IMG/VR virus record: IMGVR_UViG_3300037424_001314
Span: 1 to 55,761 of that record
Source of the DNA: a virus
Lineage: Duplodnaviria; Caudoviricetes
Strand: one strand, 5' to 3'
DNA length: 55,761 bases
The translations under genes were made by a program, and so were the position numbers. This document shows, piece by piece, positions 1-16,146 of the stretch (position 1 is its first letter; each line of letters opens with the position of its first letter). The notes beneath the pieces were generated by a model that ran no database searches, was not told the origin of the DNA, and was given only the letters and a program-made list of their open reading frames with translations.

Positions 1-123
1 GAAATTCTGAGTAGCCCCCTGGTACGCTATCACGTCACCGGACACTTCGGCGAGCACAGGGAAATTCTGAGTAGCCCCCTGGTACGCTCTCACGTCACCG
101 GCCTTGGCGAGCACAGGGAAATT
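1..123. repeat. Two near-identical ~57-60 bp tandem units encoding the protein repeat
   Basis: gaaattctgagtagccccctggtacgct... at 1 and 61; a third gaaatt begins at 118. Confidence 0.9.
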
Positions 124-237
124 GGCAGAGATATTTTCTGACACAACTAATTTGCCCGCCACTGAAACTAATTTCTGTAGTTTCGGATCATCGGCCTCTT
201 GCTGAGTTCTGATATACAAATCACCATGAATCTTCAT
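1..237 (-). CDS. Repeat protein with ~20-aa LRR/L-domain-like units, truncated by the window start
   Basis: Not in the ORF track. ATG at 237 with GGAGG upstream. Reads MKIHGDLYIR...NFPVLAKAGDVRAYQGATQNFPVLAEVSGDVIAYQGATQNF, open to base 1. Confidence 0.75.
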   Translation of the reverse strand, partial: MKIHGDLYIRTQQEADDPKLQKLVSVAGKLVVSENISANFPVLAKAGDVRAYQGATQNFPVLAEVSGDVIAYQGATQNF

Positions 238-238
238 A

Positions 239-559
239 TCAGTCCTCCACCGGGCGCAGCCCTTCATGGGTCTGTTCGATTTGGCGGACTACGCGGTAGG
301 TGTCTGCATCCAGGGGAGCAATCTTCACTGGGTCGGTGTCTCCGCCTTTCCCGTGGTCCTTATGGAACAATGAGCAGTTACTTCCCGCCACGAGAAACCC
401 GACAGTCTGCCCATCCACACAGGGATAGAATGCCCCTTTGTTGAAACTGTGCGGGTTGCCGCCGCTGCCGGTAAAAAGCACTTTGTTGTCCGATGGGGTG
501 AGCCCTCCGGGAAGGATCGCCCCGCCAATTAACGCTAAGTCTCCATGCCTAATGTTCAT
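239..559 (-). CDS. Conserved-type phage hypothetical protein (RHGD...H...HKDH...YRVVRQ pattern)
   Basis: ORF 239..631; the ATG at 559 (MNIRHGDLAL) avoids overlap with the upstream gene. Confidence 0.65.
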   Translation of the reverse strand: MNIRHGDLALIGGAILPGGLTPSDNKVLFTGSGGNPHSFNKGAFYPCVDGQTVGFLVAGSNCSLFHKDHGKGGDTDPVKIAPLDADTYRVVRQIEQTHEGLRPVED

Positions 560-563
560 TAGT

Positions 564-1067
564 TCAACCTTTCGGGAAAAGCGGTTCTTGTTTCGTCTCT
601 TCGAATTTAATGACCCCGTTTTCTCTGACACCGTAAATGTCGGGGCAGTCTATTTTGACCGGCTTCAGTTTGGGCGGCTCAAACTTGACCGTTACTTCCG
701 TCTTGAGCGTGTCCGGGTGGACCGTAACCGTAGTCGTTTGGCGCCGGATACGCTGGTCTGTCGGGTCTTTGCGTATGTCATCGCAGAGTGCTTGCCAAGT
801 TGTCTCCTGAGCTTCCTTGACCCCGGGTATCTTGTTCAGGTCGAATTCTGAGAGCGCTGTTTGCCCCGGCATTTCCTCTGCCACCCCAAATCCCCTCAAG
901 GATTGAAGCTCGTTGATCTGTCCATTAGGTTCGTTCATTGGTTTTGACTCTCCTTCGTATTCCGCACACGCGGGGCTGTCCTTTGATGTAGCCTCGCCCC
1001 AGGATTTACAGACCCCATCCTTGAGCTTCAGGCGCGTTCCACAGTAGAGTTGCGTTGGTCCGGCCAT
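564..1067 (-). CDS. Hypothetical protein with Cys-containing N-terminus
   Basis: 167-aa ORF with AAGGAG RBS, directly downstream of the array. Confidence 0.7.
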   Translation of the reverse strand: MAGPTQLYCGTRLKLKDGVCKSWGEATSKDSPACAEYEGESKPMNEPNGQINELQSLRGFGVAEEMPGQTALSEFDLNKIPGVKEAQETTWQALCDDIRKDPTDQRIRRQTTTVTVHPDTLKTEVTVKFEPPKLKPVKIDCPDIYGVRENGVIKFEETKQEPLFPKG

Positions 1068-1089
1068 TGTGTTCTCCTTGAATTCTCGT

Positions 1090-1240
1090 CGGCATCTCCC
1101 TGCGCCCGTGGGCTAACCGTTTTGCCCCGACTTCAGAGCGCGAACAACCTCGGCATCTCCCTGCGCCCGTGGGCTAACCTATTCTGCTTTGGCCGCGCCG
1201 TTGCTGGCAATCGGCATCTCCCTGCGCCCGTGGGCTAACC
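1090..1240 (-). CRISPR. Mini CRISPR array: 3 identical 29-nt repeats GGTTAGCCCACGGGCGCAGGGAGATGCCG and 2 unique 32-nt spacers
   Basis: Repeats at 1212-1240, 1151-1179 and 1090-1118, exact 61-nt period. Spacers ATTGCCAGCAACGGCGCGGCCAAAGCAGAATA and AGGTTGTTCGCGCTCTGAAGTCGGGGCAAAAC. Each repeat is followed by A, so 30+31 is also possible. Orientation inferred from the I-E-like 8-nt ...CCG handle. Confidence 0.88.
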
Positions 1241-1373
1241 TCTATGAAATCACGTTGGTTTTTCTTGAAAATGCCTTCCATGTATTAACCCACAGGTTTA
1301 AGAAGGTTGCAGTCAAAGCGTGCCCTAATGAGCTACTTTAGCGACTGCCCACTGTGCCTCAGTGGTTTAATTG
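1241..1373 (-). ncRNA. Putative tracrRNA/omegaRNA-like scaffold or structured leader
   Basis: Stems at 1349-1354/1360-1365, 1309-1314/1343-1348 and 1332-1342. Segments 1285-1296 and 1267-1275 are complementary to the repeat allowing G:U pairs. Confidence 0.55.
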
Positions 1374-2591
1374 TTAACCGAAAGCTCTTGCCTTGATGTT
1401 CATGGCGCTATTGAGCGTCCTATCCTTGACCATCCCGCAGGCAGGACATTCGTAAACGCGAACCTCTAGCGGAATCTCTTTCTGGGCCCCGCACTGGCTA
1501 CAGGTCATAGTTGTTTTGGGAGCGGGAACCTGAATAAACTCTCTCCCGTGATCCTCACATTGAGATTCAAGCCTGAAGTGGAATTGGCGCCAAGCAGCAT
1601 CGTGTATTTTTTTGGGTAGTTTGGGGTAATCTCCACCCTTAGACGCCATCCCCTTAATGTTCAACTTCTCGGCAGCGATACGGTCATATCGAGAAGCGTA
1701 TTCATGAGCAGTCTTGCAGATAAAATCCTGTCGTCTGTTGGCTATCTTCTCGTGTAGGCGAGCAACCTCTAGCCTGCATTGCTCGCGTCGTTTCGATCCC
1801 TTCTGTGCTCTCGACAGTTTCCGTTGTAGGACCCGTAGGCGTTTTTGCTCCTGCTCAAAGAATTTCGGATTCTCAGTCCTGTTCCCCTCTGAATCCATAG
1901 AGAAATGGGTTATTCCTACATCTATCCCCACTGTCTTGTTCGTGGGTTCAAGGGGATGTGTCGGGACGTCTTTGCAACTGAAGACTACAAACCATCTCCC
2001 CGAACGTTCCTTTTTTATTGTGGTGGTGCAAACCTGGAAATTTTCACCGTTTCGAGACGCCTGAGGAACCAGGTTGACGACGCTATTGATGGTAAGGAAT
2101 AACCGCCTGCTATCATACATTTTGAAACGGCCCACGTGATCGACTTCAATGTATTTGCCATTGATTCTCCAGCCAGATGAATTTGGGAATGTAAACGACG
2201 TGTAATATTGGTAACCCCGAAACTTCGGGAACCCAGAGGAGGCCCCCGCTCCAGACTTTGCTCTGCGAAAAAACGCTTTGAATGCTAGATCAAGACGTTT
2301 CAGTACGTCTTTAAGAACCTGAGAGCCCACCAAAGCGTATTCAGGAAATTCTTTCTTGAGTTCTACAAGTTGCTTTGCCTGGTCGTATTCGTTGACACCT
2401 CGTTTGGGCATATAGCCAGGTCCGTACGTTGTAGTGTCAACACAGTCCCGTTTCCCAAAGCCCTTGTTGTACGCATCTATCCTCTGCTCAAGAGCACAGT
2501 TATAGAGCCGCTGACAGAGAGAGAACCATTCGAGTGCTTTTGACTCTGTGTCTTTATTGATCGTGGCCCTGAACTTGAAAGTCCTTCTCAT
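1374..2591 (-). CDS. tnpB: TnpB/Cas12f-like RNA-guided protein with probably inactive RuvC-III
   Basis: IS605 OrfB-type N-terminus (TFKFR...LYNCAL), GFPKFR, RuvC-I GIDVG (D224), RuvC-II AAEKL (E308), zinc finger CSQC/CPAC, RuvC-III DRTLNSAMNI (T392 in place of D). No tnpA nearby. Confidence 0.92.
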   Translation of the reverse strand: MRRTFKFRATINKDTESKALEWFSLCQRLYNCALEQRIDAYNKGFGKRDCVDTTTYGPGYMPKRGVNEYDQAKQLVELKKEFPEYALVGSQVLKDVLKRLDLAFKAFFRRAKSGAGASSGFPKFRGYQYYTSFTFPNSSGWRINGKYIEVDHVGRFKMYDSRRLFLTINSVVNLVPQASRNGENFQVCTTTIKKERSGRWFVVFSCKDVPTHPLEPTNKTVGIDVGITHFSMDSEGNRTENPKFFEQEQKRLRVLQRKLSRAQKGSKRREQCRLEVARLHEKIANRRQDFICKTAHEYASRYDRIAAEKLNIKGMASKGGDYPKLPKKIHDAAWRQFHFRLESQCEDHGREFIQVPAPKTTMTCSQCGAQKEIPLEVRVYECPACGMVKDRTLNSAMNIKARAFG

Positions 2592-2600
2592 GCCTAAACC

Positions 2601-2738
2601 TCATGCCTTGGGGTATCCATATTTTGGCGTTCGGTAGTATTGAAGCTCGCCGCCCTTGTAGCGAAAACCGGCTGGGCACCCGTAGCAGCCGGCAGAATTC
2701 GTGCAGACGAAGCACATCACCTCACCCGAGTCGCCCAT
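2601..2738 (-). CDS. 45-aa Cys-rich hypothetical protein
   Basis: MGDSGEVMCFVCTNSAGCYGCPAGFRY...; AGGTGG RBS; ends 9 nt before the tnpB start. Confidence 0.5.
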   Translation of the reverse strand: MGDSGEVMCFVCTNSAGCYGCPAGFRYKGGELQYYRTPKYGYPKA

Positions 2739-2744
2739 TGCCAC

Positions 2745-2873
2745 CTAAGCTGCTACTAAAGACAAAAATTCCGGTTTTGCGTCCTGATTGAGCAGAGAAG
2801 CCGGAGTCTCCTCGAAATCGTCGGGTCTCTCTTGCTCCATGATTTGAAGCATCTGCATCTGCATTCCAGCCAT
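2745..2873 (-). CDS. 42-aa hypothetical protein
   Basis: MAGMQMQMLQIMEQERPDDF...; ATG overlaps the upstream stop (TAATG). Confidence 0.45.
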   Translation of the reverse strand: MAGMQMQMLQIMEQERPDDFEETPASLLNQDAKPEFLSLVAA

Positions 2874-3151
2874 TATCTCACCGCCTTAAATCTCGGGGGC
2901 CTGCCGGGTAGACGATTGGGCTCAATCTTCTCCCCTTGTTCTGCCACGTCCTCCGTAGCTTCGTGCTCGTGTTGTTTCAGGAAGCGCTCCAGGCTCTCCC
3001 TGTCTATGAGCCACAGGGCATTAACTGTGCCAGGTAGTTTCGAGTAGGTGACAAACCCCTTGGCGCACCATCTTCTCAGTGTATCCGGTGACAGCTTCAG
3101 CTCTTTTGCCACGACTTTCAGAGCCTCGTATTGGGCCATCGTTGACCTCAT
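2873..3151 (-). CDS. MerR-type/excisionase-like HTH DNA-binding protein
   Basis: VAKELKLSPDTLRRWCAKG...WLIDRESLERFL. Confidence 0.8.
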   Translation of the reverse strand: MRSTMAQYEALKVVAKELKLSPDTLRRWCAKGFVTYSKLPGTVNALWLIDRESLERFLKQHEHEATEDVAEQGEKIEPNRLPGRPPRFKAVR

Positions 3152-3370
3152 TCTTTTGCTTTTTGTTTTGATGCTCGGTATTCAGACCGCCGAGCAACGG
3201 GAGGGGGAGTTAATCAAACCTGCAATCAGACACACCAGTCAGGAGGTTGCAGCCCGCTAGGGGGCTGGATAGTTTCTCTCTTGAGTCGTGCCGGATGCCT
3301 GGGGTCACGCTCGTCCGGCGCGAGGATAGGTAAGAAGGAGGTCGTCATGGAGTGCCGCTTATGGGACTCG

Positions 3371-4222
3371 TCAGTTTTCGGTCGGATCTTCTGTTATCAA
3401 TTTTTGCCTAATATGTTTGATGGTTGGTCGCTGAATGTTCTGTAATATTGACGAGGAGAAGTTGCTTTCCCAGGGATCAACTAGGCCGTTGCGAGTTCCT
3501 CTAATTAATTTATTCCGACCATCGTTGCTAGCATCAACGTGTGTCGTAAGGGCTGCTCGTCCAGCCTCGTCGATACTCTTTGTTGAGATAAGCAACTGGA
3601 GGTAGTCTTTGCCACACACAGGGGCCAACAATCTCATGCCGTAGGCAATATGTGTTTGGTTGTCGTCTAATTGCTTACGCCGCCTGCGTTTGCTTGGGTC
3701 GGGGTTGCCAATCAACTTCCCTACGTTGGCATTAACCGAGACGATGCGGAACGTTACAGAGTGAAAATCCGATGGATTCTTCAGCCCAACGTCTCTGAGT
3801 AAATCTCGGGCCGAGGTTTCTTCCGTTACCCCAGAGAGAGAAGATTCGGGATTGAGTTGCTGAATCCCGGTTAAACACTCGCGGATGACCCCGTGGTTGA
3901 AGGCATCCATCATCGACGATTTATCAACAGACCGATACTCTTTGTTGAGCATTCTTTCATAGTGCAGGCGACCAGGATGATCTTTAGAGGCGCCTTTCAC
4001 GAGATCTGCCAACGCGTCATATTTATCCCTATTGTATTCATAAATGTATGGCTTCAGTTCACGCCACTGAGGCGTGAAAAAGGGACTGGGGACGGGGAAG
4101 CCAAAATGTTTGTCTCTACACAGTTTATAAAACCCAAAAAGCCTATCATACAGACCAGTTGTGACCAAGATACGATAGTGTATCAGCCCAACATTAAGCC
4201 CGGCATAACTAACCCCGTTCAT
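3371..4222 (-). CDS. Hypothetical protein coupled to the ParB-like gene
   Basis: ORF 3371..4264; ATG at 4222 follows GGAGG and overlaps the end of the upstream gene. Confidence 0.7.
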   Translation of the reverse strand: MNGVSYAGLNVGLIHYRILVTTGLYDRLFGFYKLCRDKHFGFPVPSPFFTPQWRELKPYIYEYNRDKYDALADLVKGASKDHPGRLHYERMLNKEYRSVDKSSMMDAFNHGVIRECLTGIQQLNPESSLSGVTEETSARDLLRDVGLKNPSDFHSVTFRIVSVNANVGKLIGNPDPSKRRRRKQLDDNQTHIAYGMRLLAPVCGKDYLQLLISTKSIDEAGRAALTTHVDASNDGRNKLIRGTRNGLVDPWESNFSSSILQNIQRPTIKHIRQKLITEDPTEN

Positions 4223-5729
4223 TACCGCCTCCGATAATCCCCCTGCTCTGGAAACTGTTTTCAACCTGTCTCAGTTGGTCTGCTATGCCGCTAAGGACTG
4301 AATAGATTCGCTTAAATTCCGGCTTTTCCATGATGTCCCAATACTGTTTGGCGTTTGCGACTCCGATCATGTGAATGAATTCGTCTCCGAATCTGTTGAA
4401 TACCTTGATCCATCCGTTGATGTCTTGAAGTTGAGCTGACTTCTCTCTCTGGGCATCAATGCGTTTCTTCTCTTCCTCAAGTTCGGTCTGCTTCCTCTTC
4501 AGGTCATCCTTTTGCTTGGCGAGCTGCTGTTTAATGTGGTCAAGCTCCTCACGTTCGCGGGCGATGGTGTCGTAAGCGTCGTTCAGTTCTTCCTCTTGCT
4601 CCGCGTTCTTCTCGGCCTGGATTTCAACACGGAGTTGCTCAGTCATCTCGGCCCGGATCTTTTCGGCCACCTCAAGCTCAACCTGCTCCCGAAGGTTAAC
4701 GATCTGATTTTCTAGGTTGGTTACTTGTCCTTCATAGAGGTTGCGGTCCTCCATGAGTTCCTGAATCTCGCGTTGAAGTTCGGCCTTCTCGTCCCCGGCG
4801 TTCTCGATCTGATTGCGGATTTTGGATATTTCAGCGGTGGCGGCCTTGACCTTCTCTTCGTATTCGGCCTTCAGTTTTTCAGCCTGTTTGGTTGCCTGTT
4901 CTTGAAGCCGCTTGGTCTCGGCCTGAAGCTGTTCCTTCGCTTGTCGGACCTCGGCGTTCTTCTCGTTGAGCTTCTTGTTCCAGTTGATAAGCTCTTGTGC
5001 GGCAATCTCTTTCAGGCGAGCGGCCTGTTGAGCTTCTTTAATGGCGACGCGGCGCTCTGCTGAGTGAGTAGGTAGGTCTTCCTTACTCAATTCCCCGGAG
5101 ACCAGCTTGTCGATGCAGGCCGTCACTTCGGAGTAGTCGTAAACGCGCTCGTTTCCGTTATCTGGGTTGCGAGAGGTTTCAATGCGGAGGGGGAGGAGAA
5201 AACGAATAGCGTCATCCATAGAAACATTATGTTGCAACATAACGTTTTCGATCCCAGGTATAGACCCTACAGCTATACGTCCGAGCACGTCTGTCTGTTG
5301 CTTCAGCCCGAACACTTTCGCAATCTGCTTCCACTCTTTCCCTTCCGCCCTCATCCTCGCGAAGCACACGCACTCAGCTTGCCAGTTGAAGGAGCGCAAC
5401 TTGTTCTCGGAAAGGTTGCGGCCCCATACCCCGTAGTCTGATTGGTCGTAAATGATGATTGCAGGGATATCGGTCCAGTGTTGGGTTGCCTTATTAGATC
5501 GAGCGTCAGACCAAAGCTTTTCATAGGCACGGAGACGCCCGGCGCCCGCGACTACCTCAAACTTGCCTGTATCTCCATTGACATCATGAAGAGGCCGGAC
5601 GGTTATCGGATTGATGAGTCCGAACTCCTTGATATTCGCTGCGAGGGTTGCAACATTCTCTTGCGAATGTGGATTCGGGTTATCAGGATTTGGTCTGATC
5701 TTTTCGATGGGTAGGAGTGTGATTTTCAT
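4209..5729 (-). CDS. ParB/Srx N-terminal domain protein with long coiled coil
   Basis: IRPNPDNPN...IKEFGLINPITVRP...VVAGAGRLRAY...SEN; E/K/Q-rich helical C-terminal half. Confidence 0.85.
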   Translation of the reverse strand: MKITLLPIEKIRPNPDNPNPHSQENVATLAANIKEFGLINPITVRPLHDVNGDTGKFEVVAGAGRLRAYEKLWSDARSNKATQHWTDIPAIIIYDQSDYGVWGRNLSENKLRSFNWQAECVCFARMRAEGKEWKQIAKVFGLKQQTDVLGRIAVGSIPGIENVMLQHNVSMDDAIRFLLPLRIETSRNPDNGNERVYDYSEVTACIDKLVSGELSKEDLPTHSAERRVAIKEAQQAARLKEIAAQELINWNKKLNEKNAEVRQAKEQLQAETKRLQEQATKQAEKLKAEYEEKVKAATAEISKIRNQIENAGDEKAELQREIQELMEDRNLYEGQVTNLENQIVNLREQVELEVAEKIRAEMTEQLRVEIQAEKNAEQEEELNDAYDTIAREREELDHIKQQLAKQKDDLKRKQTELEEEKKRIDAQREKSAQLQDINGWIKVFNRFGDEFIHMIGVANAKQYWDIMEKPEFKRIYSVLSGIADQLRQVENSFQSRGIIGGGNERG

Positions 5730-5741
5730 TATGATGGCTCC

Positions 5742-6557
5742 CTATTGGACGGGGAATGTTTCGGTATTCTGGGCTTTCGGAAGACACTTCGTCGGTAACA
5801 ATCTAAGCGTCTGCTGTACCGTCGGGTTCTCGCCCAGCCACGCCTTGAATGCTTCACGGAGGAACTGATCGTTCTCGGGACAGGGCTCGATAACACAGTC
5901 GGGCATCTTCTTTTGCTTGCGGCGGTCCCTGATGGAGAGCAGTCCCCCGCGGAGAGCGGCGTGTCGTTTTGATGCGTACCAGTCGAACGAGCCACCACTG
6001 TTGAATCTCGGGGGCAGTCGATCCTTGTGGACGAGAACCTTGAGTCTCTGTGTTGGCGTAGGCCAGAAGGAATTGTCGGTCTGAGCGGGAATGAAGGTCT
6101 GGGCTCTCCACTCATCCGTGGCGCTCATGCGCTTCATGAGGTTGTTCAGCATGTTCCCCTGAAGCATGACCGTCTCGTTGAGCTGGTTCAGGATTTGGGT
6201 GAGGACCGGCGAGTTATACTGACCTGTGATCATGACCTCATACAAAACCGTCTCTGCCCAATCTCTAAACTCGCCGGCATGCGGGGCGTCGCTTCTCATG
6301 CAAACCCGGATTACTCCGCGGTGTGACAAAACAACCGTTTTTTGGACGCCGCCAAGCGTCTCCAAAGGGAGCAACCTGAAGTGGCTACCTTCGCGAAGCT
6401 CTCCATTGGCGGTCAATTCGGCAATCAACTTCCGACATGCCCACGCCTTTTTGTACCCAAGTCCAGACGAAAGAGCGTTGGCAGTTATCCATTTCTGTCC
6501 ATCAGCCTCAACGATTCTGAAGTCGGTATTTTGGAATCTCATGGTCAAGGCGTTCAT
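5742..6557 (-). CDS. BRO-N domain antirepressor-like protein
   Basis: FRIVEADGQKWITANALSSGLGY...TLGGVQKTVVLSHRGV...MRSDAPHAGEFRDWAETVL; located just after cro. Confidence 0.85.
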   Translation of the reverse strand: MNALTMRFQNTDFRIVEADGQKWITANALSSGLGYKKAWACRKLIAELTANGELREGSHFRLLPLETLGGVQKTVVLSHRGVIRVCMRSDAPHAGEFRDWAETVLYEVMITGQYNSPVLTQILNQLNETVMLQGNMLNNLMKRMSATDEWRAQTFIPAQTDNSFWPTPTQRLKVLVHKDRLPPRFNSGGSFDWYASKRHAALRGGLLSIRDRRKQKKMPDCVIEPCPENDQFLREAFKAWLGENPTVQQTLRLLPTKCLPKAQNTETFPVQ

Positions 6558-8192: not shown

Positions 8193-9359
8193 ATGCCTAT
8201 CAAGCAGCGGTGCTCTAAATGCCGCCAGTTCGTGACGTACGGAACAAGGATCTGTCCTAATCCTTCGTGTGGGGGGGCGGTCCACAAATCGGTCTATCTC
8301 GTCAAGAAAGTCAGGGGGAGACTCGTAACGCGTAGCCTCGGGATATGCACGCGTTCGGATGCAGAGACCGAACACGCCCGATTTATACTAGAGATCGGAC
8401 GGGGCATAATCTCGGCACCCACGTTCCTGGGAGAACTCCTTGACGGCCATGTAGCGAAGATGTGCGCCGAAAAGAAGGACTACCACCAACGAGCGCGCCT
8501 GTTTTTTGACCGGGCGCTTACTTTTTTCGGGGACGTGGATATTTCACGTATCACGCCTGACCAAGCTCGAAAATTCCAAACATGGTTGATCGCGGGAAGA
8601 AATTCTGAGTCCTACTGTGACAAACACATTGCGATGTGCAAGGCCGCGTGGAATTCGGGGGCGTGGGGCCGGCCGAATCCGTTTGAACAGGTAAAGCTCT
8701 TCAACCCGGATAACACGTTGATTCGGTGGCTCTCTGACGACGAAGAGGCGCGCCTGTTGATCGCGGCAAAAGAGTTACCCAACAAGCCAGGACATAACCA
8801 GGGCGGCATGACGCCGCTCAACCTCCACGAAATCATCTTGATCGCAATTCACACCGGCCTCCGCAAGCAAAATATACTGAAACTTCATGTCGATGAGATC
8901 CACGCGGCATCTCGCATGATCATAGTCAGACAGAAGCGTAACCGGACCCACGTCGCTTACATCAACGAAGCCGTTCAAGGAGCACTCCAGTCTGTGACGC
9001 CGAACGATCAGGGATGGTATTTCCCCAATCCTCTAACGAACAAGCCGTATACGGATATTGTGGGCACCTTTGAAGCAGTCAAGAAGCTGGCGGGGATAAC
9101 AAAACCGTTCCGGTTCCACGACCTCAGACACCACGCAGCGACAAAACTGCTCCGTTTAACTGGGAACCTCCGGCTCGTGCAACTGTTCCTCGGTCACAGC
9201 ACAGCGGCAGTAACAGAGAAGTATGCACATGTTTTAGCTGACGATCAACGCGCGGCTGTTGAGCAGCTTTGTGGCAGGGGGGTGTACAAAAAGGCGTACC
9301 AATTGGGGATTGACGATGCTATCAACCTGTTATCACATGGAGATACGGTTCCTAATTAG
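8193..9359 (+). CDS. int: Tyrosine integrase
   Basis: HTGLR, K, FRFHDLRH, LGH and YAH catalytic motifs; N-terminal CxxC pairs. Confidence 0.95.
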   Translation: MPIKQRCSKCRQFVTYGTRICPNPSCGGAVHKSVYLVKKVRGRLVTRSLGICTRSDAETEHARFILEIGRGIISAPTFLGELLDGHVAKMCAEKKDYHQRARLFFDRALTFFGDVDISRITPDQARKFQTWLIAGRNSESYCDKHIAMCKAAWNSGAWGRPNPFEQVKLFNPDNTLIRWLSDDEEARLLIAAKELPNKPGHNQGGMTPLNLHEIILIAIHTGLRKQNILKLHVDEIHAASRMIIVRQKRNRTHVAYINEAVQGALQSVTPNDQGWYFPNPLTNKPYTDIVGTFEAVKKLAGITKPFRFHDLRHHAATKLLRLTGNLRLVQLFLGHSTAAVTEKYAHVLADDQRAAVEQLCGRGVYKKAYQLGIDDAINLLSHGDTVPN

Positions 9360-10629: not shown

Positions 10630-11633
10630 TTCAAGCAATCATTGTGCCTGAAGGCGGGGATATTGAATTACTCAAGGAGCTTTTTGGGGAGGACTTCTCG
10701 AAAATAGAAGGCGCCGAGGTGTCCACTGACGGCACAAGCCAGGTCTATACCCTGGCACAGAAAAGCGATTTCTCGCGGCTCAACGCCCCCGTTCCCATTG
10801 GAGATACAGCAATCAAAGCGATTACCGGAGAACCGCTAGCGGGGAAAGCGGACGCCGTGACTGTAACCATGCCGCTACAGGATACGGCCGCGACCATTAC
10901 ACACGAACGCGAGATCTCATTCGGGGAACTCCTCGACCACGAACTCTATCGATGTTTCGACCTCATTTTCGGAGCCTTCAGCCAAATGATGAGCACCGCA
11001 GACCAGCGGAGACAGATCGTCATGGCCGCGCTCGATGCTCTCAGAGCATTCCTTGAGGTGCTCCTCGCTCAAACAGGCAATCAGCCCGTAGCCGGTAAAG
11101 CAGAAGAGAGGCGTCCTTTTGGCGCAAGCGAGTTCACCGGGCAGACCATTATCGAGCTGCGCAAGATCGAGAAACGGCTGATGCAAAAGCTCGACGGACT
11201 CCCGAAAGAAAATCAAGACAACGGAGGAATAGACATGAACGCAGAGGAAACGACCGCTTTGGTCAAAGAGGTTCTGTGTCCGCTTACAGAAAAAGTGGAT
11301 GCGTTGGCACTCAAATTCGATGAATCGCAGAAGCTCAAGGAACCGGTGATTGATCCGAACGCCGCAACTGTGGACCCCAACGCCGCTAAGACTGAACCGG
11401 TGAGCAAGGACGAGATTGTAGCAGCCTTGAAGGCCGAAATGGCCCCACTCCTGGAGAAGGTCGAGAAACTGGAGACGGCGGTGGCGGATACAGCCAAGAA
11501 AGCCGATGCACTCCAGCACCAGGGCAATCGGGTCCATACGGAGACTGAAGACCCTCGGGCCGTCAAATCCGACGACCCGCGATTGGCTGACCCGTGGAAC
11601 CAGGAAATTTTGAAACGCGCAACTGCCCGATAA
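10614..11633 (+). CDS. Probable capsid scaffolding protein
   Basis: Between protease and capsid; acidic, coiled-coil C-terminus. Confidence 0.6.
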   Translation: MAGQIVQAIIVPEGGDIELLKELFGEDFSKIEGAEVSTDGTSQVYTLAQKSDFSRLNAPVPIGDTAIKAITGEPLAGKADAVTVTMPLQDTAATITHEREISFGELLDHELYRCFDLIFGAFSQMMSTADQRRQIVMAALDALRAFLEVLLAQTGNQPVAGKAEERRPFGASEFTGQTIIELRKIEKRLMQKLDGLPKENQDNGGIDMNAEETTALVKEVLCPLTEKVDALALKFDESQKLKEPVIDPNAATVDPNAAKTEPVSKDEIVAALKAEMAPLLEKVEKLETAVADTAKKADALQHQGNRVHTETEDPRAVKSDDPRLADPWNQEILKRATAR

Positions 11634-11673
11634 CGGGCTTATGAATCAAATTGATTTGGGAGGAATTGATACC

Positions 11674-12648
11674 ATGTCCGCTCCAGGAATAGACAATTCA
11701 AGAAAGTTGTTCAAAGCCGACCTGACCAGCGATTACTTGTCAGGGGGCACATACGGCCGCGGCCTTCTGCCGGAAGCTGTATCCGATTCGTTCATAGTTG
11801 CGATGCAGGCAAAGAGCATCTTTTTGCAGGAAGCCAACGTGCAACGGATGACGTCCATGAAACAGGACATTGATGTTGCAGGATTTGGTTCTCGCGTCCT
11901 TTTTAAGGACGTCGCTGGAGTCGCCCCCACGGACGCACAACGTTCGTCTCTGACCATCTCCAGGAACCAACTTGACGCCGTATGGATGAGGGCTGCCACA
12001 GAGCTGAATTACCATGTCCAAAACGAGAACATCATGAAGCTCGGTATTGGGGCATACGTGAAAAGTCGGCTCGTAGACGAGGTATATCTAGACATAGAGG
12101 AAACGTGCTGGTACGGCGATACCGACTCCGCTGTGGATGGCCTCGACGCTTTTGACGGCATCATCAAAAAAGCCCGAGCCCGAGGCCGAGTCATCGACTC
12201 TACAGACGTCCCCTCGACAATCACAGACGAGCCGTTCCTGAAGGCGTACCTGAGCCTACCCAAGGCGTGGAGGGCCAGAAACAACAAGCCAGACCTTCGT
12301 TTCTACTGCTCCGATGATGTAGAGGCCGTCTACGCGAACTGGTTGACCCACAACAGGAATCTCGCACAGGCCGTCTACTACGACAATGCGGACCCGGGCG
12401 ACAGAATCAAACTACAGGGTGTATTCGTCAAACCGATGGCGATGCTGGCCAACGATGTGATCATCTGCACAAACCGCATGAACATCTGCCCTGGATTCTT
12501 TATTGAGATGTTCCTTGAAGAAAAACACGATCCAGCCCCGGGCACGGACGCCTACTATCTGCGGCTCGCAATGGATGTAGAGTTGGCTCAGGACTCTGGC
12601 ATAGCAATTTTTGAGGGACTCGATCTCGAAATGGAAGGCACCCTGTAA
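11674..12648 (+). CDS. Major capsid protein (HK97 fold, XkdG-like)
   Basis: GLLPEAVSDSFI, DIEETCWYGD, FDGIIKKA, LPKAWR; size and position fit. Confidence 0.88.
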   Translation: MSAPGIDNSRKLFKADLTSDYLSGGTYGRGLLPEAVSDSFIVAMQAKSIFLQEANVQRMTSMKQDIDVAGFGSRVLFKDVAGVAPTDAQRSSLTISRNQLDAVWMRAATELNYHVQNENIMKLGIGAYVKSRLVDEVYLDIEETCWYGDTDSAVDGLDAFDGIIKKARARGRVIDSTDVPSTITDEPFLKAYLSLPKAWRARNNKPDLRFYCSDDVEAVYANWLTHNRNLAQAVYYDNADPGDRIKLQGVFVKPMAMLANDVIICTNRMNICPGFFIEMFLEEKHDPAPGTDAYYLRLAMDVELAQDSGIAIFEGLDLEMEGTL

Positions 12649-12663
12649 GCCGAGAGGGGAACT

Positions 12664-12921
12664 ATGCCGACAATAACCCTCTTGAGGCCCGCGGCGACTT
12701 ACGAGATATGTCTCGGGCCTCAAGAATCCTACAAGTTTTTTCAAGACACCCCGGTTTGCGCGTCTCAGCGGGTAGCCGACGCATGCGCACGAGTCAACGC
12801 AAAACGCTCGGGCAGGCCGGTTTTCAAGATTATGCCTAATAGTGGAGACCCAGACGCTGATGTACTTGAGGCGTTTGGGCTGCAAATGGAGTGGCCATCG
12901 TGGAACTCAACGCAAGAGTAG
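12664..12921 (+). CDS. Small hypothetical protein after the capsid gene
   Basis: GAGGGG RBS; in operon. Confidence 0.55.
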   Translation: MPTITLLRPAATYEICLGPQESYKFFQDTPVCASQRVADACARVNAKRSGRPVFKIMPNSGDPDADVLEAFGLQMEWPSWNSTQE

Positions 12922-13556
12922 GGGGCAAGACCGCAAATAGTTTCGTGACGCTCGCAAGGGCAGACGAGATTATTGCCGCCGGTCCATACCCTACTACTGC
13001 GTGGGATGCCGCTACGGACGCGAAGAAGATTTTTTGTCTGATCTTGGCAGCCCGGTTTATGCGGAGCCGCTATTCGTACAAAGGGTGGCCGGTCCACCTG
13101 AATCAGTCGCTACCGTTTCCACGATACTACACGGAACTACCGGACCAGCCTCACGGGATATTCGCCCCTAGTTATCGTGTGTATGAGTGGACCAGCTTGA
13201 ATATCCTGGGGTTGACGACGGACGAGATTGCGGCAGCAGATGTTATCCCCGAAGAGATCGAGATGGCCCAGTGTTACATCGCTTATGGGGTGATTTTCCG
13301 GGGTCTCGTTGGGGTGACAGACCCGGCACGAGGGCCGCTAGGCAAGAAGCCGCAGGTCAAGGAACTCAACCTATTTGATGGTGGCCTGAAGATAGTTACA
13401 TCGGACAGGCCGTTATCGGTCACAGACAACTCCATGATCGAGCGTGTCATCCGCAGCGAGCATTTTCACATCATTCTGCTGCTTGAGGACTGGATAAGCG
13501 GGGCCAGCATGGGGCCGGGACTTCGCAGTTATGCGCTACTACCGGAGACATTGTAA
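12891..13556 (+). CDS. Head-tail adaptor (DnaT-like phage family)
   Basis: ANSFVTLARAD...W...QSLPFPR...IPEEIEMAQC pattern. Confidence 0.75.
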   Translation: MAIVELNARVGGKTANSFVTLARADEIIAAGPYPTTAWDAATDAKKIFCLILAARFMRSRYSYKGWPVHLNQSLPFPRYYTELPDQPHGIFAPSYRVYEWTSLNILGLTTDEIAAADVIPEEIEMAQCYIAYGVIFRGLVGVTDPARGPLGKKPQVKELNLFDGGLKIVTSDRPLSVTDNSMIERVIRSEHFHIILLLEDWISGASMGPGLRSYALLPETL

Positions 13557-13924
13557 TGCCTCTCAGTGATTTCCAGGACCAAATACTCGAAATAGTAGAG
13601 GATCATTTTTTTGCTGACACCGAGTTGGTGCGAACCGTAACATGGTCGCTCTATAAAGGCCGGTCTACCGCTGCGAGCACGTTCTCCGTGCCTGCCGTCC
13701 ACGGTAAGCACAAAGTCGGTGACGCGGAGATGGAGCACCACGTTGCTGGTCAGCAAGGTGAGCGCATATACTACATTCGGGAGTCTGACTTGCCGTCTGG
13801 GGTTACTTTCGAAGATCTTACGAGAAACGACGTTGTAACCGATGCAGGATCCGATTTCACTGTAGCTGAAATCAACAAATCGCTCGAATTCATAATCAAG
13901 GTTACGTGCTGGGGGCCGAGGTAA
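13556..13924 (+). CDS. Head closure/joining protein
   Basis: Position, size and TAATG coupling. Confidence 0.55.
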   Translation: MPLSDFQDQILEIVEDHFFADTELVRTVTWSLYKGRSTAASTFSVPAVHGKHKVGDAEMEHHVAGQQGERIYYIRESDLPSGVTFEDLTRNDVVTDAGSDFTVAEINKSLEFIIKVTCWGPR

Positions 13925-14421
13925 TGCTCGCCATTAGCTACATAATCCAGAACGCCATAGCGATACAGAGCCTAAACACAGCTCTACCTGGTGGTTCGTG
14001 GGTTGGTGTCCAGGACGTCAGCCGGTTATTCAAAAATGAAGTTCAGTCTGCCACCCCTATCGGCTGGAAATACACAAAGCAGGCTAAGACCAAAAAAGGA
14101 AAGGTCAAGGCCGGGACTGGCAAGTGGAAGCGTAGCGGCGCAGCCCGTGCCGCGTGGAGCATACAAGCTGATTCAGGAGCTCGCGGGATCTCTGTATTCA
14201 ATGAAACTCCATACATGCGGCCTCTTGAAGAGGGGCTCTACCCGGATCCACCGAAAGGCCCGATGCCGAAAGGCGTTCCTTGGACTCCGTGGAGGGTTGA
14301 GGGTGGGTTCTCGAAACAGGCTCCTGGGGGCATTGTGGGACCGATCTTTGCTGATGACGCATTCTGGGATAACGCAATGAACCTCATCATTCAACGCATC
14401 CAAGAGAGGCTACAGGGCTGA
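13924..14421 (+). CDS. HK97 gp10-like tail completion protein
   Basis: ATP...SGAARAAW...NETPYMRPLEEG...SKQAPGG motifs. Confidence 0.75.
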   Translation: MLAISYIIQNAIAIQSLNTALPGGSWVGVQDVSRLFKNEVQSATPIGWKYTKQAKTKKGKVKAGTGKWKRSGAARAAWSIQADSGARGISVFNETPYMRPLEEGLYPDPPKGPMPKGVPWTPWRVEGGFSKQAPGGIVGPIFADDAFWDNAMNLIIQRIQERLQG

Positions 14422-14870
14422 TGGCAGACGAACGCGAAGCCATATTGAGCGAATGGGAAACGGCGCTCTCAGATGTGTCTGATTGTAAAGTCGCTTCCCG
14501 CGATTTCGGCCTCGTGCTGGCCGTCCAGCTTGACGAATTCCCCGCGGCGTTCGTGCTAGACCTCGGCGATACAGTTGATGAACCGGAGATACTGCAACGC
14601 AACAATCTCACAACCATGCAAATCGGCGTTGTAACTGTCCTGAGAGGCTCAACGGCAGCCACAACCGCATCCGAGCATTCGGCGTTCCAGAGAAAAATCC
14701 TGCGCGCCATCTATGAGGCGGTCGCTAGTAGCGACGATGTGACGGGGTTCGCACGAACGGGTCGTTCGCAATTGGCGTTCGATACCCGATTCGGGCCGAA
14801 TGTCGTTTATCAGGGCATGCAATTTGATGTGCAATTCATTGAAGACATCGTTGAGCTGCTTAACGAATAA
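14421..14870 (+). CDS. Probable tail terminator
   Basis: Position before the tail tube gene; DEFPAAFV motif. Confidence 0.6.
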   Translation: MADEREAILSEWETALSDVSDCKVASRDFGLVLAVQLDEFPAAFVLDLGDTVDEPEILQRNNLTTMQIGVVTVLRGSTAATTASEHSAFQRKILRAIYEAVASSDDVTGFARTGRSQLAFDTRFGPNVVYQGMQFDVQFIEDIVELLNE

Positions 14871-14903
14871 TAGAGATCAACAATTGATACGGAGGTAATC
14901 GAT

Positions 14904-15488
14904 ATGGCTTACAGTGTGCAGCAATTAACGTTGGGTGGGGGCATATTTTATCTTGCCCCTCGCAGTGGCGACATAGAACCGGACGTGGGCGGATGGACCG
15001 ACGAGACCGGATCTTTCAATTTAGACTATGGTGATTTCAACGACCTGGGAGCGGTTCCTGACGTCAAGGCGTCGGTAAAGGTCGATGTGGCCGAACACTA
15101 CACGAACCGCGATGGTCCTGACGTGAAAGACGCTCAAGATCCAGTCCAGACGGGTCTCACCTGGAAGATTTCCTGCGACCAACTCAATCAGGACACCCTT
15201 GCGATGTTTTTCCTCGGCGCCAAGAGCGGGGCACGCACGGTCTACCATCTGACTAACCCTATGCAGGAATTCGCGTTGAAAGTCGTTCCCCGGTATACCA
15301 GGGGCGAGAAATGGACCCACCACATGCACAGGGGCGTCCTGAAACCGACCGGCGACGCATCGTTCTTCACCCGCAAGGAATACGGGAAGCTGGATTTTGA
15401 GATTGAGGCGTTGGCCGATTATGCGAACCATTCAAACGATGCGGGCGATAGCGTGTTCGGCTACAGCTCGTTGCCTGAAACCCTGTAA
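14904..15488 (+). CDS. Major tail tube protein
   Basis: LTLGGGIFY...DLG...LKPTGD...FEIEAL; precedes the chaperones and tape measure gene. Confidence 0.8.
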   Translation: MAYSVQQLTLGGGIFYLAPRSGDIEPDVGGWTDETGSFNLDYGDFNDLGAVPDVKASVKVDVAEHYTNRDGPDVKDAQDPVQTGLTWKISCDQLNQDTLAMFFLGAKSGARTVYHLTNPMQEFALKVVPRYTRGEKWTHHMHRGVLKPTGDASFFTRKEYGKLDFEIEALADYANHSNDAGDSVFGYSSLPETL

Positions 15489-15500
15489 TCGAGGTGATTT

Positions 15501-15917
15501 GTGAGTCAAGAAGAACGCTCTGCCGAGAAAAAGGCAAAGGCTTATGCTGCGATTGAGATTGATTGCAATGGCGTGACTGTTGAGGTCCGCCCCATTCCCG
15601 CAGGGAAGCTTATGAAGGCGACAACTTTCCTGTGGGATATTTTCAAGAATATCATCACCGGCGGGACCAACGAGGAATTGATCGAGAAGTGGGGCGATAA
15701 GCTTTTCGATTACCTCAACATGGCCGTTACCGTGCCGGACATCCCGGAGTGGACAGCAGAGGATTTGCCGTCCAACGCGATCGCCCAGGTGATTGACGCA
15801 TTCCTGGAACATACGATCAACCTGGGAAACTGGCGGGCCCGGGTTCGGAAATGGCAAGACCTCTTCGGGGTCAAAGTGGAGACGCCGGATTCGGGTTCAC
15901 AGACCTTGACGACATAA
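15501..15917 (+). CDS. Tail assembly chaperone (gpG-like)
   Basis: Position; carries an in-frame slippery site. Confidence 0.75.
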   Translation: MSQEERSAEKKAKAYAAIEIDCNGVTVEVRPIPAGKLMKATTFLWDIFKNIITGGTNEELIEKWGDKLFDYLNMAVTVPDIPEWTAEDLPSNAIAQVIDAFLEHTINLGNWRARVRKWQDLFGVKVETPDSGSQTLTT

Positions 15918-16129
15918 TCGAAGAACTACAGGTAATACTGATACTTGAAGGCCAAGATTATGATGTGGTCGAGAAATATTCTTTCCAGACGCTATTGCGA
16001 ATTACAGATGGCCTGATAGCCAAGAACAATCCAGACGGAGCGCAGGATCGCAATTGGCAGGAGTGGTCCCCGGAAAACGAGGATGCCACGATGGCCGAGT
16101 ATATGCGCCTCACAACCAAGACAAAATAG
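15824..16129 (+). CDS. Tail assembly chaperone extension (gpGT-like) via -1 frameshift
   Basis: G GGA AAC at 15824-15830; the -1 frame is open into ORF 15851..16129. Confidence 0.8.
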   Translation, partial: GKLAGPGSEMARPLRGQSGDAGFGFTDLDDIIEELQVILILEGQDYDVVEKYSFQTLLRITDGLIAKNNPDGAQDRNWQEWSPENEDATMAEYMRLTTKTK

Positions 16130-16146
16130 TGTAACGGGGCCTGAAC

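What the first reader, a model, noticed from the sequence alone, without database searches (positions are those of the whole stretch)
1241..1373. Tracr/omegaRNA-like segment with two anti-repeat patches and a possible pseudoknot
Seen on the minus-strand RNA: CCUGUGGGUUAA (1296-1285) pairs 12/12 (two G:U) with repeat UUAGCCCACGGG. GGCAUUUUC (1275-1267) pairs 9/9 (two G:U) with repeat GGAGAUGCC. The hairpin CCACUG-AGGCA-CAGUGG has a loop able to pair with UGCC next to the spacer. The order of the two patches fits clamping the repeat halves on both sides of a spacer rather than one whole repeat. Inference: a split omegaRNA acting as tracrRNA with unusual topology. Caveat: 1285-1301 also resembles this phage's TTAACC-N5-GGTTAA box and forms its own hairpin.
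Basis: partly seen in the sequence, partly recalled or inferred. Interest (0 to 1): 0.75.

Follow-up and report, generated by a model that had tools for sequence, protein, structure and literature searches.

The report
Guide-RNA scaffold of a phage TnpB mini-array
The segment is the conserved, folded guide-RNA scaffold that sits between a small transposon-derived RNA-guided protein (TnpB) and a three-repeat CRISPR-like array in a temperate phage; it is a real but fairly ordinary example of a recently described kind of system, and the protein lacks one of its three cutting residues.

Summary
On the minus strand, 1373..1242 lies between the stop of a 405-aa TnpB gene (2591..1374) and three identical 31-nt repeats spaced 61 nt apart (1241..1089).

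The segment is homologous to the region downstream of tnpB in four related loci (about 55-68% protein identity). It keeps two hairpins, an anti-repeat and a pseudoknot through compensatory changes.

The "clamp" topology is not needed. The stem-1 loop GGCA pairs with the guide-adjacent UGCC in 5 of 5 loci and switches to GGUC:GACC in one. This is the same kind of pseudoknot as in the solved ISDra2 TnpB omega-RNA.

Relatives carry one, 2+1 or four-plus repeats, so the repeat is the 3' end of an omega-RNA that was duplicated into an array (TranC / type V-U-like).

The protein has Thr where ISDra2 has its third RuvC Asp (D361), so it probably binds DNA without cutting it. I found no RNA data and no spacer target.

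The parts
1374..2591 (-). tnpB-like gene, 405 aa (P0001). RuvC residues are D224, E308 and T392; the Thr stands where ISDra2 TnpB has D361. The zinc-finger cysteines are kept.
   Evidence: NF040570 guided_TnpB, 2.8e-80; residue-level alignment to 8bf8
1242..1373 (-). Omega-RNA-derived scaffold (tracr-like region), contiguous with the first repeat
   Evidence: Homologous to the region downstream of tnpB in L052, L053, L054 and L034. Covariance model R1 finds only these five among 53 sources. No Rfam match.
1349..1365 (-). Stem 1: a 6-bp hairpin. Loop AGGCA (1359..1355) pairs through GGCA with UGCC of the repeat (1216..1213) to form the pseudoknot.
   Evidence: 5 of 6 stem pairs show changes on both sides. 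Pseudoknot: 20/20 cells paired, and 2 of 4 pairs compensatory.
1309..1348 (-). Stem 2: a long interrupted hairpin
   Evidence: 15 pairs, 100% of cells paired, 5 pairs with changes on both sides
1300..1305 (-). Anti-repeat part AR0 (CUUCUU). It pairs with AGGGAG of the repeat (1223..1218).
   Evidence: Helix 66-70/150-154: 96% of cells paired, 2 of 5 pairs compensatory.
1284..1296 (-). It forms 13 bp with the repeat's 5' part (1239..1227), and overlaps one copy of the phage's TTAACC-N5-GGTTAA box.
   Evidence: P = 0.0016; -19.8 kcal/mol; forms in trans with repeat 2
1242..1283 (-). Linker between the anti-repeat and the first repeat.
   Evidence: Patch 2 against the repeat's 3' end: 21 of 25 cells paired, compensatory in L052, broken in L053 and L054
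1089..1241 (-). Three-repeat CRISPR-like array. Repeats: 1241..1211, 1180..1150, 1119..1089. Spacers: 1210..1181 and 1149..1120.
1059..1088 (-). Sequence after the last repeat, which would be a third 'guide'. It covers the ribosome-binding site and start codon of the next ORF (1067..564).
   Evidence: read directly from the sequence

Best explanation
Window 1373..1242 (minus strand) encodes the scaffold of an omega-RNA-type guide RNA for the TnpB protein encoded just upstream.

**Architecture, 5' to 3'.**
- Stem 1, with a 5-nt loop.
- Stem 2.
- A two-part colinear anti-repeat (AR0, AR1).
- A linker of about 42 nt.
- The first repeat, then a 30-nt guide.

**Folding.** The repeat folds back on AR1 and AR0. 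Its last bases before the guide (UGCC) pair with the stem-1 loop to form an H-type pseudoknot stacked on stem 1, as in ISDra2 TnpB omega-RNA. Because the repeat-plus-guide unit has been duplicated (three copies here), the same scaffold can pair in trans with the downstream units. In that mode it works as a tracrRNA.

**What the system is.** It is a TnpB-to-CRISPR intermediate (TranC / type V-U-like) carried next to the integrase of a temperate tailed phage. The effector lacks the third RuvC aspartate, so it most likely binds its DNA targets without cutting them, acting as a TldR-like or dCas12-like repressor.

**Shown:** homology, structure, covariation and the residue change.

**Inferred:** trans use, RNA processing and binding without cleavage.
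For: 1. **Protein.** TnpB identity: NF040570 at 2.8e-80, and ISDra2 TnpB (8bf8) at 9.5e-34.
2. **Homologous loci.** Four related loci have an alignable region downstream of tnpB, at 81% mean column identity.
3. **Covariation.** On the nested structure plus the loop pseudoknot, 97.2% of 179 cells pair. 15 of 36 pairs show changes on both sides. 0 of 500 shuffles reach the observed value on four of five measures (10 of 500 on the fifth). Versions slid by 1-3 columns give 36-44% paired.
4. **Pseudoknot.** GGCA:UGCC in four loci and GGUC:GACC in L052. In ISDra2, nt -5 to -3 pair with the stem-1 loop and stack on stem 1 (PMC10097598, passages read).
5. **Trans pairing is favourable.** The scaffold plus the repeat-2/spacer-2 unit gives -65.4 kcal/mol, against -33.3 and -20.0 for each alone, and the AR0+AR1 duplex forms.
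6. **Repeat number varies within the clade.** One in L034 and L054, 2+1 in L053, three here, and four plus a truncated fifth in L052. In every locus the first copy is fused to the scaffold.
7. **Dedicated repeats.** In genomes G001 and G002 the repeats occur only at the TnpB loci. G001's resident 89-repeat array has an unrelated 32-nt repeat.
8. **RuvC.** D224 and E308 align with ISDra2 D191 and E278, and T392 aligns with D361. Among the query and its 120 best hits, the triad reads DED in 106. All 8 non-DED members of the 10-tip clade (DET x6, QGT, SRG) lack the third Asp, P0004 alone keeps DED, and P0010 lacks the column.
9. **Phage context.** Integrase, tape-measure and portal genes are present. 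No Cas1 or Y1 TnpA was found in the window.
Against: - There are only five sequences, and L053, L054 and L034 are close to each other. That leaves about three independent lineages, and the pseudoknot covariation rests on L052 alone.
- The structure was derived from the same sequences, which favours it in the slid-partner control.
- A rival partner for the same UGCC (patch 2) also covaries in L052.
- There is no RNA evidence of any transcript or of processing.
- No protospacer was found for any spacer, so the array's function is not shown.
- The TldR authors warn that a single RuvC substitution can be misleading, because a catalytic residue can sit at another position; they required two or more mutations.
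- Two junction contigs in run X1, which may be the source sample, lack tnpB and part of the scaffold. The module is therefore dispensable for at least part of the phage population.
Confidence: 0.72

Rival explanations
1. Patch 1 pairs with the 5' half of the repeat downstream of a spacer, and patch 2 pairs with the 3' half of the repeat upstream of it. The tracr then brackets a spacer instead of pairing with one whole repeat.
For: Both patches are complementary to the repeat. Their 5'-to-3' order is permuted relative to a single colinear duplex. Patch 2 covaries with the repeat's 3' end in L052.
Against: - AR0 (1305..1300) supplies the colinear partner for the middle of the repeat and covaries.
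- MFE and cofold predictions use AR0+AR1 with one repeat.
- Patch 2 is complementary in L034, which has a single repeat.
- Patch 2 is broken in L053, which has adjacent repeats.
- Bracketing would bury the guide in a loop.
Confidence: 0.06
2. The architecture is the same, but the guide-adjacent AUGCC pairs with patch 2 in the linker (GGCAU, 1275..1271) rather than with the stem-1 loop, or alternates between the two. Patch 2 could hold the RNA in a pre-assembly or inactive state.
For: Patch 2 carries the same AGGCA motif as the loop, and changes to AGGUC together with the loop and the repeat end in L052. The 9-bp duplex is more stable than the 4-bp loop helix (-10.5 against -4.2 kcal/mol). The ISDra2 paper likewise notes a nearer predicted partner that is not the one used in the structure.
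Against: Patch 2 is broken in L053 and L054 (4 of 25 cells unpaired), whereas the loop pairing holds in 5 of 5 loci. The full 9-bp version competes with the covarying AR0 helix. On its own it is at chance level.
Confidence: 0.2
3. Decaying relic. This is a dead IS200/IS605-type element whose right end was duplicated by chance, so the RNA and protein no longer do anything.
For: The third RuvC Asp is lost. The L054 copy is frameshifted. No TnpA and no targets were found. Deletion variants lacking tnpB exist in run X1.
Against: - The ORF is intact, with its zinc-finger cysteines and 119 other positions invariant across 9 clade proteins (123 invariant columns).
- Thr is kept at the mutated position in 7 of 9.
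- RNA helices are kept through compensatory changes.
- The repeats are perfectly or near-perfectly identical within each locus.
Confidence: 0.1
4. 1285-1301 is primarily a protein-binding operator (the phage's TTAACC-N5-GGTTAA palindrome), and its complementarity to the repeat is incidental.
For: The box is over-represented: 8 matches against 1.03 expected. 1285-1301 matches it with one mismatch.
Against: The bacterial relatives keep an anti-repeat at the same position with different sequence and no such box, matched to their own repeats. A 13-bp match to the adjacent repeat has P = 0.0016. The two roles are not exclusive.
Confidence: 0.08

Closest known systems
ISDra2 TnpB omega-RNA (Deinococcus radiodurans; PDB 8bf8, 8exa, 8h1j)
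   Same: - It is encoded right after tnpB on the same strand, with the guide at the 3' end.
- A 5' hairpin loop forms the pseudoknot with the bases just before the guide.
- A crRNA-like strand folds back on a tracr-like strand, making a 'natural sgRNA' (PMC10097598).
- ISDra2 TnpB is the best natural solved-structure match to the protein.
   Different: - No sequence similarity between the RNAs, and no Rfam match.
- The stem-1 loop here is 5 nt, against about 19 nt in ISDra2.
- The tetraloop of ISDra2 is replaced by a linker of about 42 nt.
- The repeat-plus-guide unit is present three times.
- No TnpA and no recognisable transposon ends.
- The third catalytic Asp is Thr.
TranC (transposon-CRISPR intermediates; Jin et al., Cell 2025, doi 10.1016/j.cell.2025.09.004) and the type V-U groups of Altae-Tran et al. 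2023 (PMC10691335)
   Same: - A TnpB-sized effector with a short downstream CRISPR array and no other cas genes.
- An array that plausibly arose by duplication of an omega-RNA segment.
- A tracr-like scaffold between the gene and the array.
- A phage-borne example (CauTranC9) is in print (bioRxiv 10.64898/2026.03.27.714800).
   Different: - Described TranCs are active nucleases; this protein lacks a RuvC Asp.
- Repeats here are 29-31 nt, against the 32-38 nt reported for clades 3, 9, 11 and 20.
- The solved LaTranC matches only weakly (4.6e-12, C-terminal part only).
- I did not see the Jin et al. paper itself, only a review passage and its reference entry. I saw no clade lists, so membership of a numbered clade is unknown.
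TldR (TnpB-like nuclease-dead repressors) and array-associated dCas12f
   Same: - A TnpB-family protein with a degraded RuvC triad, an adjacent guide RNA and a temperate-phage location, like fliC-associated TldR.
- The clade shows progressive loss (DET, QGT, SRG).
- Nuclease-dead Cas12f homologues next to CRISPR arrays are reported (PMC13472631).
   Different: - Only one of the three residues is changed here, and there is no C-terminal truncation.
- There are several guides in an array rather than one.
- No promoter target was found.
- 'Array' has 0 occurrences in PMC13622181. The single occurrence of 'CRISPR array' in the TldR preprint concerns Cas1.
Cas12f (type V-F) tracrRNA:crRNA
   Same: Tracr between the effector gene and the array, and a conserved pseudoknot core shared with TnpB (PMC10097598, Extended Data Fig. 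7 legend).
   Different: The protein matches Cas12f only weakly (2.4e-6). Cas12f has enlarged REC/WED domains according to the text read. That the Cas12f repeat pairs with two separate tracr regions is my recollection and was not checked.

Membership tests
TnpB omega-RNA (OMEGA system) | Non-coding RNA encoded at or after the 3' end of tnpB on the same strand, with a variable guide at its 3' end | tested here: met
   The same layout holds in four relatives.
TnpB omega-RNA (OMEGA system) | Pseudoknot between the bases just 5' of the guide and the loop of the 5' hairpin | tested here: met
   Sequence and covariation only: 20/20 cells paired, 2 of 4 pairs compensatory. Reference architecture from PMC10097598. 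There is no structural or probing data.
TnpB omega-RNA (OMEGA system) | Lies within an IS200/IS605 or IS607 element with LE/RE ends and, often, TnpA | tested here: not met
   No Y1 transposase (PF01797) in the window, and no ends recognised. The record is about 46% complete, so a TnpA elsewhere in the phage is not excluded.
TranC / type V-U CRISPR-like | TnpB-like effector (about 300-600 aa) with an adjacent CRISPR array | tested here: met
   405 aa. Three repeats spaced 61 nt apart. Size range taken from 10.1101/2025.09.28.678669.
TranC / type V-U CRISPR-like | Guide RNA functionally split into a separate tracrRNA and crRNA | not testable with these tools
   No RNA run listed. Trans pairing is only predicted.
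TranC / type V-U CRISPR-like | RNA-guided DNA cleavage with an intact RuvC D-E-D triad | tested here: not met
   T392 stands at the ISDra2 D361 position. The relative L052/P0004 keeps D-E-D.
TldR | Conserved inactivating RuvC mutations in a TnpB homologue | tested here: inconclusive
   One of three residues is changed here, and all three are changed in clade members P0007 and P0009. The defining study required two or more changes.
TldR | Guide complementary to a promoter region of a target gene | tested here: not met
   No match for the window's spacers in the window, the fetched loci, viral contigs, GenBank phages or 401 genomes of the relatives' phylum. The host genome is unknown.
Type I-E-style CRISPR array hijacking host Cas (considered) | Repeat shared with a resident host array and its cas genes | tested here: not met
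   In G001 and G002 the repeat occurs only beside tnpB. G001's cas1-linked array has an unrelated repeat. The 29+32 = 61-nt geometry resembles type I-E only from recollection.

The most novel reading that the evidence does not exclude
A temperate phage carries a multi-guide, non-cutting TnpB: a TldR-like repressor whose single omega-RNA has begun to split into a tracr-like scaffold plus an array. One small protein could then silence several host or rival-phage genes during lysogeny.

The relative L053 gives a hint of the logic. Its first spacer encodes the prepilin motif GFTLIELMV and matches the neighbouring pilin-like gene at 30 of 36 nt, with mismatches near the guide's 5' end. This recalls how fliC-type TldR spares the phage's own flagellin copy.
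Probability: 0.3. Interest if true: 0.72.

Novelty: new member of a known kind. Interest (0 to 1): 0.48.

Why it matters
The small clade catches array birth in progress. Within proteins about 55-68% identical to P0001, the same omega-RNA 3' segment occurs once, 2+1 times, three times and four-plus times, and the first copy is always still fused to the scaffold. That is the intermediate state proposed for the origin of type V CRISPR arrays.

If the Asp-to-Thr effector really binds without cutting, the locus would link two known routes of TnpB domestication, arrays (TranC/Cas12) and repression (TldR), in a temperate phage. It would also offer a 405-aa programmable multi-guide DNA binder.

The RNA result is also a compact test case for the conserved TnpB/Cas12 pseudoknot, here reduced to a 5-nt loop.

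Tried and rejected
- **Rfam.** An E-value scan of 1-6000 gave no match.
- **More homologues.**
  - Viral contigs by protein, by alignment, by exact repeat and by a degenerate scaffold pattern: nothing.
  - The order of G001 (70 genomes): only G001 and G002.
  - Model R1 on 53 sources: only the five known loci, plus one antisense hit at E = 0.24.
L004 stops inside the gene.
- **Protospacers.**
  - Window spacers against the window, viral contigs as 20-mers and GenBank phages (only chance hits at E = 10).
  - Window spacer 1 (24 nt) against 401 genomes of G001's phylum: 4 hits with 3 mismatches, against 2 for the reversed control.
  - All relatives' spacers against the window and every fetched locus: self-matches apart from one 3-mismatch hit of L053 spacer 1 in L062, the same G001 place as.
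  - Two L052 spacers against viral contigs: nothing.
  - L053 spacer 1 in G001 and G002: itself, plus one 3-mismatch hit.
- **Expression.** No RNA holder is listed.
- **Promoter and terminator scan** of 500-3300: at chance level.
- **Adaptation and transposition genes.** No Cas1 or TnpA in the window.
- **Host type I-E array hijack:** rejected.
- **Other.** Earlier findings were not open. I made no structure prediction, because the tools return no coordinates with which to inspect the active site.

Full report
**What is there.** The window is an IMG/VR virus record of 55,761 bases, estimated about 46% complete. PHROG matches to an integrase (8193-9359), a tape-measure protein (16147-20235) and a portal protein (41104-42957) show a temperate tailed phage.

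On the minus strand, ORF 2591..1374 encodes a 405-aa protein. It matches Pfam OrfB_IS605 and the Cas12f1-like TNB domain, and NCBIfam NF040570 "RNA-guided endonuclease TnpB family" at 2.8e-80. Its best solved natural relative is ISDra2 TnpB at 9.5e-34.

Directly downstream on the same strand come 132 non-coding bases (1373..1242). After them come three 31-nt repeats at 61-nt spacing, 97-100% identical, separated by two 30-nt spacers. The finding's coordinates are exactly this non-coding gap.

**The observation.**
- Patch 1 extends to 13 contiguous pairs (1296..1284 with repeat positions 3-15). A run that long appeared in 0.16% of 5000 dinucleotide-preserving shuffles.
- Patch 2 (1275..1267) gives 9 pairs. 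A best run of 9 or more occurs in 18% of shuffles, so by itself it is not remarkable.
- The 172-nt stretch from the stop codon to just past the first repeat folds at -54.8 kcal/mol, better than all 200 shuffles (z = -3.3).

**Homologues.**
- The protein search gave a small group at 50-62% identity (P0002-P0009), and then a mass of ordinary TnpBs at 40-47%.
- In a FastTree of the query and its 120 best hits, P0001-P0010 form one clade with support 0.89.
- DNA was obtainable for four related loci: L052, L053 and L054 from two delta-proteobacterial MAGs, and L034 from a metagenome.
- All four have a region downstream of tnpB that aligns with window 1370..1209 at 81% mean column identity.
- A covariance model built from the five sequences finds only those five among 53 sources.
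- Rfam has no match, and a degenerate core pattern has no hit in viral contigs.

**Structure.** RNAalifold and the single-sequence MFE agree on the following elements.
- Stem 1: 6 bp with a 5-nt loop.
- Stem 2: a long interrupted hairpin.
- A long-range duplex in which two adjacent patches pair with one whole repeat across a 3x3 internal loop. AR0 (1305..1300) pairs with the repeat's AGGGAG, and AR1 (1296..1284) pairs with the repeat's 5' part.

With AR0 the anti-repeat is colinear with the repeat, so no unusual topology is needed.

I counted pairs on the five-sequence alignment for the nested structure plus a pseudoknot between the stem-1 loop (GGCA) and the UGCC that precedes the guide.
- 97.2% of 179 cells pair.
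- 15 of 36 pairs have changes on both sides.
- 0 of 500 shuffles reach the observed value on four of five measures, and 10 of 500 on the fifth.
- Sliding the 3' partners by 1-3 columns drops pairing to 36-44%.
- The pseudoknot helix pairs in 20 of 20 cells. In L052 both variable positions change together, from GGCA:UGCC to GGUC:GACC.

This is the same kind of contact as in ISDra2 omega-RNA. There, nucleotides -5 to -3 pair with the stem-1 loop and the pseudoknot stacks on stem 1, "rather than with the predicted" nearer partner (PMC10097598, section on omega-RNA architecture, read as passages). With one unpaired base 5' of the loop helix and none 3' of it, the geometry fits an H-type pseudoknot stacked on stem 1. 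That last point is my inference.

**Patch 2.** It also switches to AGGUC in L052. It pairs with the repeat's 3' end in the window, L052 and L034, but is broken in L053 and L054: 21 of 25 cells pair.
- Its full 9-bp form competes with the covarying AR0 helix.
- It is complementary in L034, which has only one repeat. This argues against clamping two repeats around a spacer.

I keep it as an unresolved alternative partner for the guide-adjacent bases.

**The limits of this evidence.**
- There are five sequences, three of them close to each other.
- The pseudoknot covariation comes from one lineage.
- The structure was derived from the same alignment on which it was counted.

**The array and its origin.** Repeat number differs between the loci.
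- One in L034, and one in L054, whose gene is frameshifted.
- Two adjacent plus one degenerate copy in L053.
- Three in the window.
- Four plus a truncated fifth in L052.

In every locus the first copy is fused to the scaffold through a conserved linker. So the "repeat" is the 3' end of an omega-RNA, and the arrays arose by duplicating that segment together with its guide. This is the route proposed by Altae-Tran et al. (PMC10691335, passages). It underlies the TranC concept, which I know only from a review passage and its reference entry and from two preprints; I did not see the Cell paper itself.

Cofolding predicts that the scaffold can pair in trans with the second repeat-spacer unit. The dimer gives -65.4 kcal/mol, against -33.3 and -20.0 for the two RNAs alone, and it uses AR0+AR1. 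Whether a separate tracrRNA exists is unknown, because no RNA run is listed.

The arrays are dedicated to the TnpB.
- In G001 and G002 the repeats occur only next to tnpB.
- G001's cas1-linked array of 89 repeats has an unrelated 32-nt repeat.
- The window has no Cas1 and no Y1 TnpA.

**The protein's active site.** In the phmmer alignment to ISDra2 TnpB, D224 and E308 align with D191 and E278, and T392 aligns with D361. The catalytic triad is named in PMC10097598.

Among the query and its 120 best hits the triad reads as follows.

| Triad | Count |
|---|---|
| DED | 106 |
| DET | 6 |
| DEP | 4 |
| QGT | 1 |
| SRG | 1 |
| DEK | 1 |
| VED | 1 |
| column missing | 1 |

All six DET proteins, plus QGT and SRG, belong to the query's clade. 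Only P0004, which resembles the L052 protein, keeps DED there. L053 has Ala at the third position.

The zinc-finger cysteines and 119 other positions are invariant across the nine clade proteins (123 invariant columns). This speaks for a protein under selection that no longer cuts DNA by the canonical mechanism.

The TldR paper states that mutating any of the three residues abolishes nuclease activity. It also warns that single substitutions can be spurious, because a catalytic residue may sit at another position. The placement of P0004 inside the clade is weakly supported (0.48), so the order of array gain and Asp loss cannot be read from the tree.

**Targets.** None found. The searches were:
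- The window's spacers against the window, viral contigs and GenBank phages.
- Window spacer 1 (24 nt) against 401 genomes of the relatives' phylum, where 4 hits compared with 2 for the control.
- All the relatives' spacers against all sequence held, which gave self-matches apart from one 3-mismatch hit of L053 spacer 1 at the G001 place.
- Two L052 spacers against viral contigs.

One lead comes from a relative. L053's first spacer encodes GFTLIELMVAVV, the prepilin N-terminal motif. It matches the N-terminus of a pilin-like ORF about 1 kb downstream (PF07963, 4.7e-10) at 30 of 36 nt. No better match exists in that MAG.

The TTAACC-N5-GGTTAA box is a real over-represented motif: 8 matches against 1.03 expected, and 1285-1301 is one of them. 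The bacterial relatives keep an anti-repeat at this position without the box. Pairing with the repeat is therefore the conserved property, though a second role as a protein site in this phage is not excluded.

**Comparison and verdict.**
- *What it works like.* An ISDra2-type omega-RNA whose crRNA-like end has been multiplied, which makes it a tracr-like scaffold for a mini-array.
- *What it belongs to.* It meets the layout criteria of TranC / type V-U systems, but fails the intact-nuclease criterion. It meets the TldR criterion of RuvC decay only in part. Nuclease-dead Cas12f homologues beside CRISPR arrays are already in print (PMC13472631), and so is a phage-borne TranC.
- *Rating.* I rate it a new member of a known kind.
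- *The bolder reading.* It could be a phage multi-guide repressor. That is not excluded and would be more interesting.

Noticed in passing
window 1319|2714 and 1241|5669: Contigs of run X1, which may be the source sample, include two junction pieces that skip parts of the window.
- One joins 1319 to 2714 (depth 6.2). It removes tnpB, stem 1 and half of stem 2, between imperfect 12-nt direct repeats at 1308-1319 and 2702-2713.
- The other joins 1241 to 5669 (depth 5). The joint is exactly at the repeat/linker boundary on one side and inside the ParB-like ORF on the other.

The main path has depth 10-15. So part of the phage population lacks the TnpB module.
   Followed up: partly
L053:5265-5296 and L053:5764-6420 (-): The first spacer of a relative's array encodes the prepilin motif GFTLIELMVAVV. 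It matches the neighbouring pilin-like gene (PF07963) at 30 of 36 nt. This may be a TldR-like arrangement in which the guide targets a gene while the element's own copy is spared.
   Followed up: partly
window 9636, 9781, 26867, 29375, 29427, 44857, 52198 (and 1285): The palindromic box TTAACC-N5-GGTTAA occurs 8 times with up to 2 mismatches, against 1.03 expected. It is probably an operator for a phage regulator. Positions relative to genes were not examined.
   Followed up: no
window 1-120: A tandem direct repeat of about 60 nt lies at the very start of the record: two near-identical copies beginning at 1 and 61, with a third beginning at about 117. It lies inside an open-ended minus-strand ORF.
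   Followed up: no
window 2601-2744 (-): A 47-aa cysteine-rich ORF lies immediately upstream of tnpB and has no Pfam match. The 1319|2714 junction would truncate it after 8 codons.
   Followed up: no
window 1059-1088 (-): The sequence after the last repeat, a would-be third guide, covers the ribosome-binding site and start codon of the next ORF (1067..564; 167 aa, no family match).
   Followed up: no
L054 (G002:C16:87366-88467): The second tnpB copy in genome G002 is split into two open frames of 219 and 236 aa, probably by a frameshift. It has a single repeat, yet keeps the scaffold at 172 bits against model R1.
   Followed up: partly
L072 (G001:C18) about 11200-17100: Genome G001 carries a large CRISPR array of 89 copies of a 32-nt repeat next to a cas1 gene. 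It is unrelated to the TnpB-linked repeat.
   Followed up: partly
window arrays and L052, L053: All the multi-repeat arrays in the clade have a 61-nt period (about 29 nt of repeat plus 32 nt of spacer). I recall this as the period of type I-E arrays. Whether the spacers were added by a host adaptation complex acting in trans is open.
   Followed up: no
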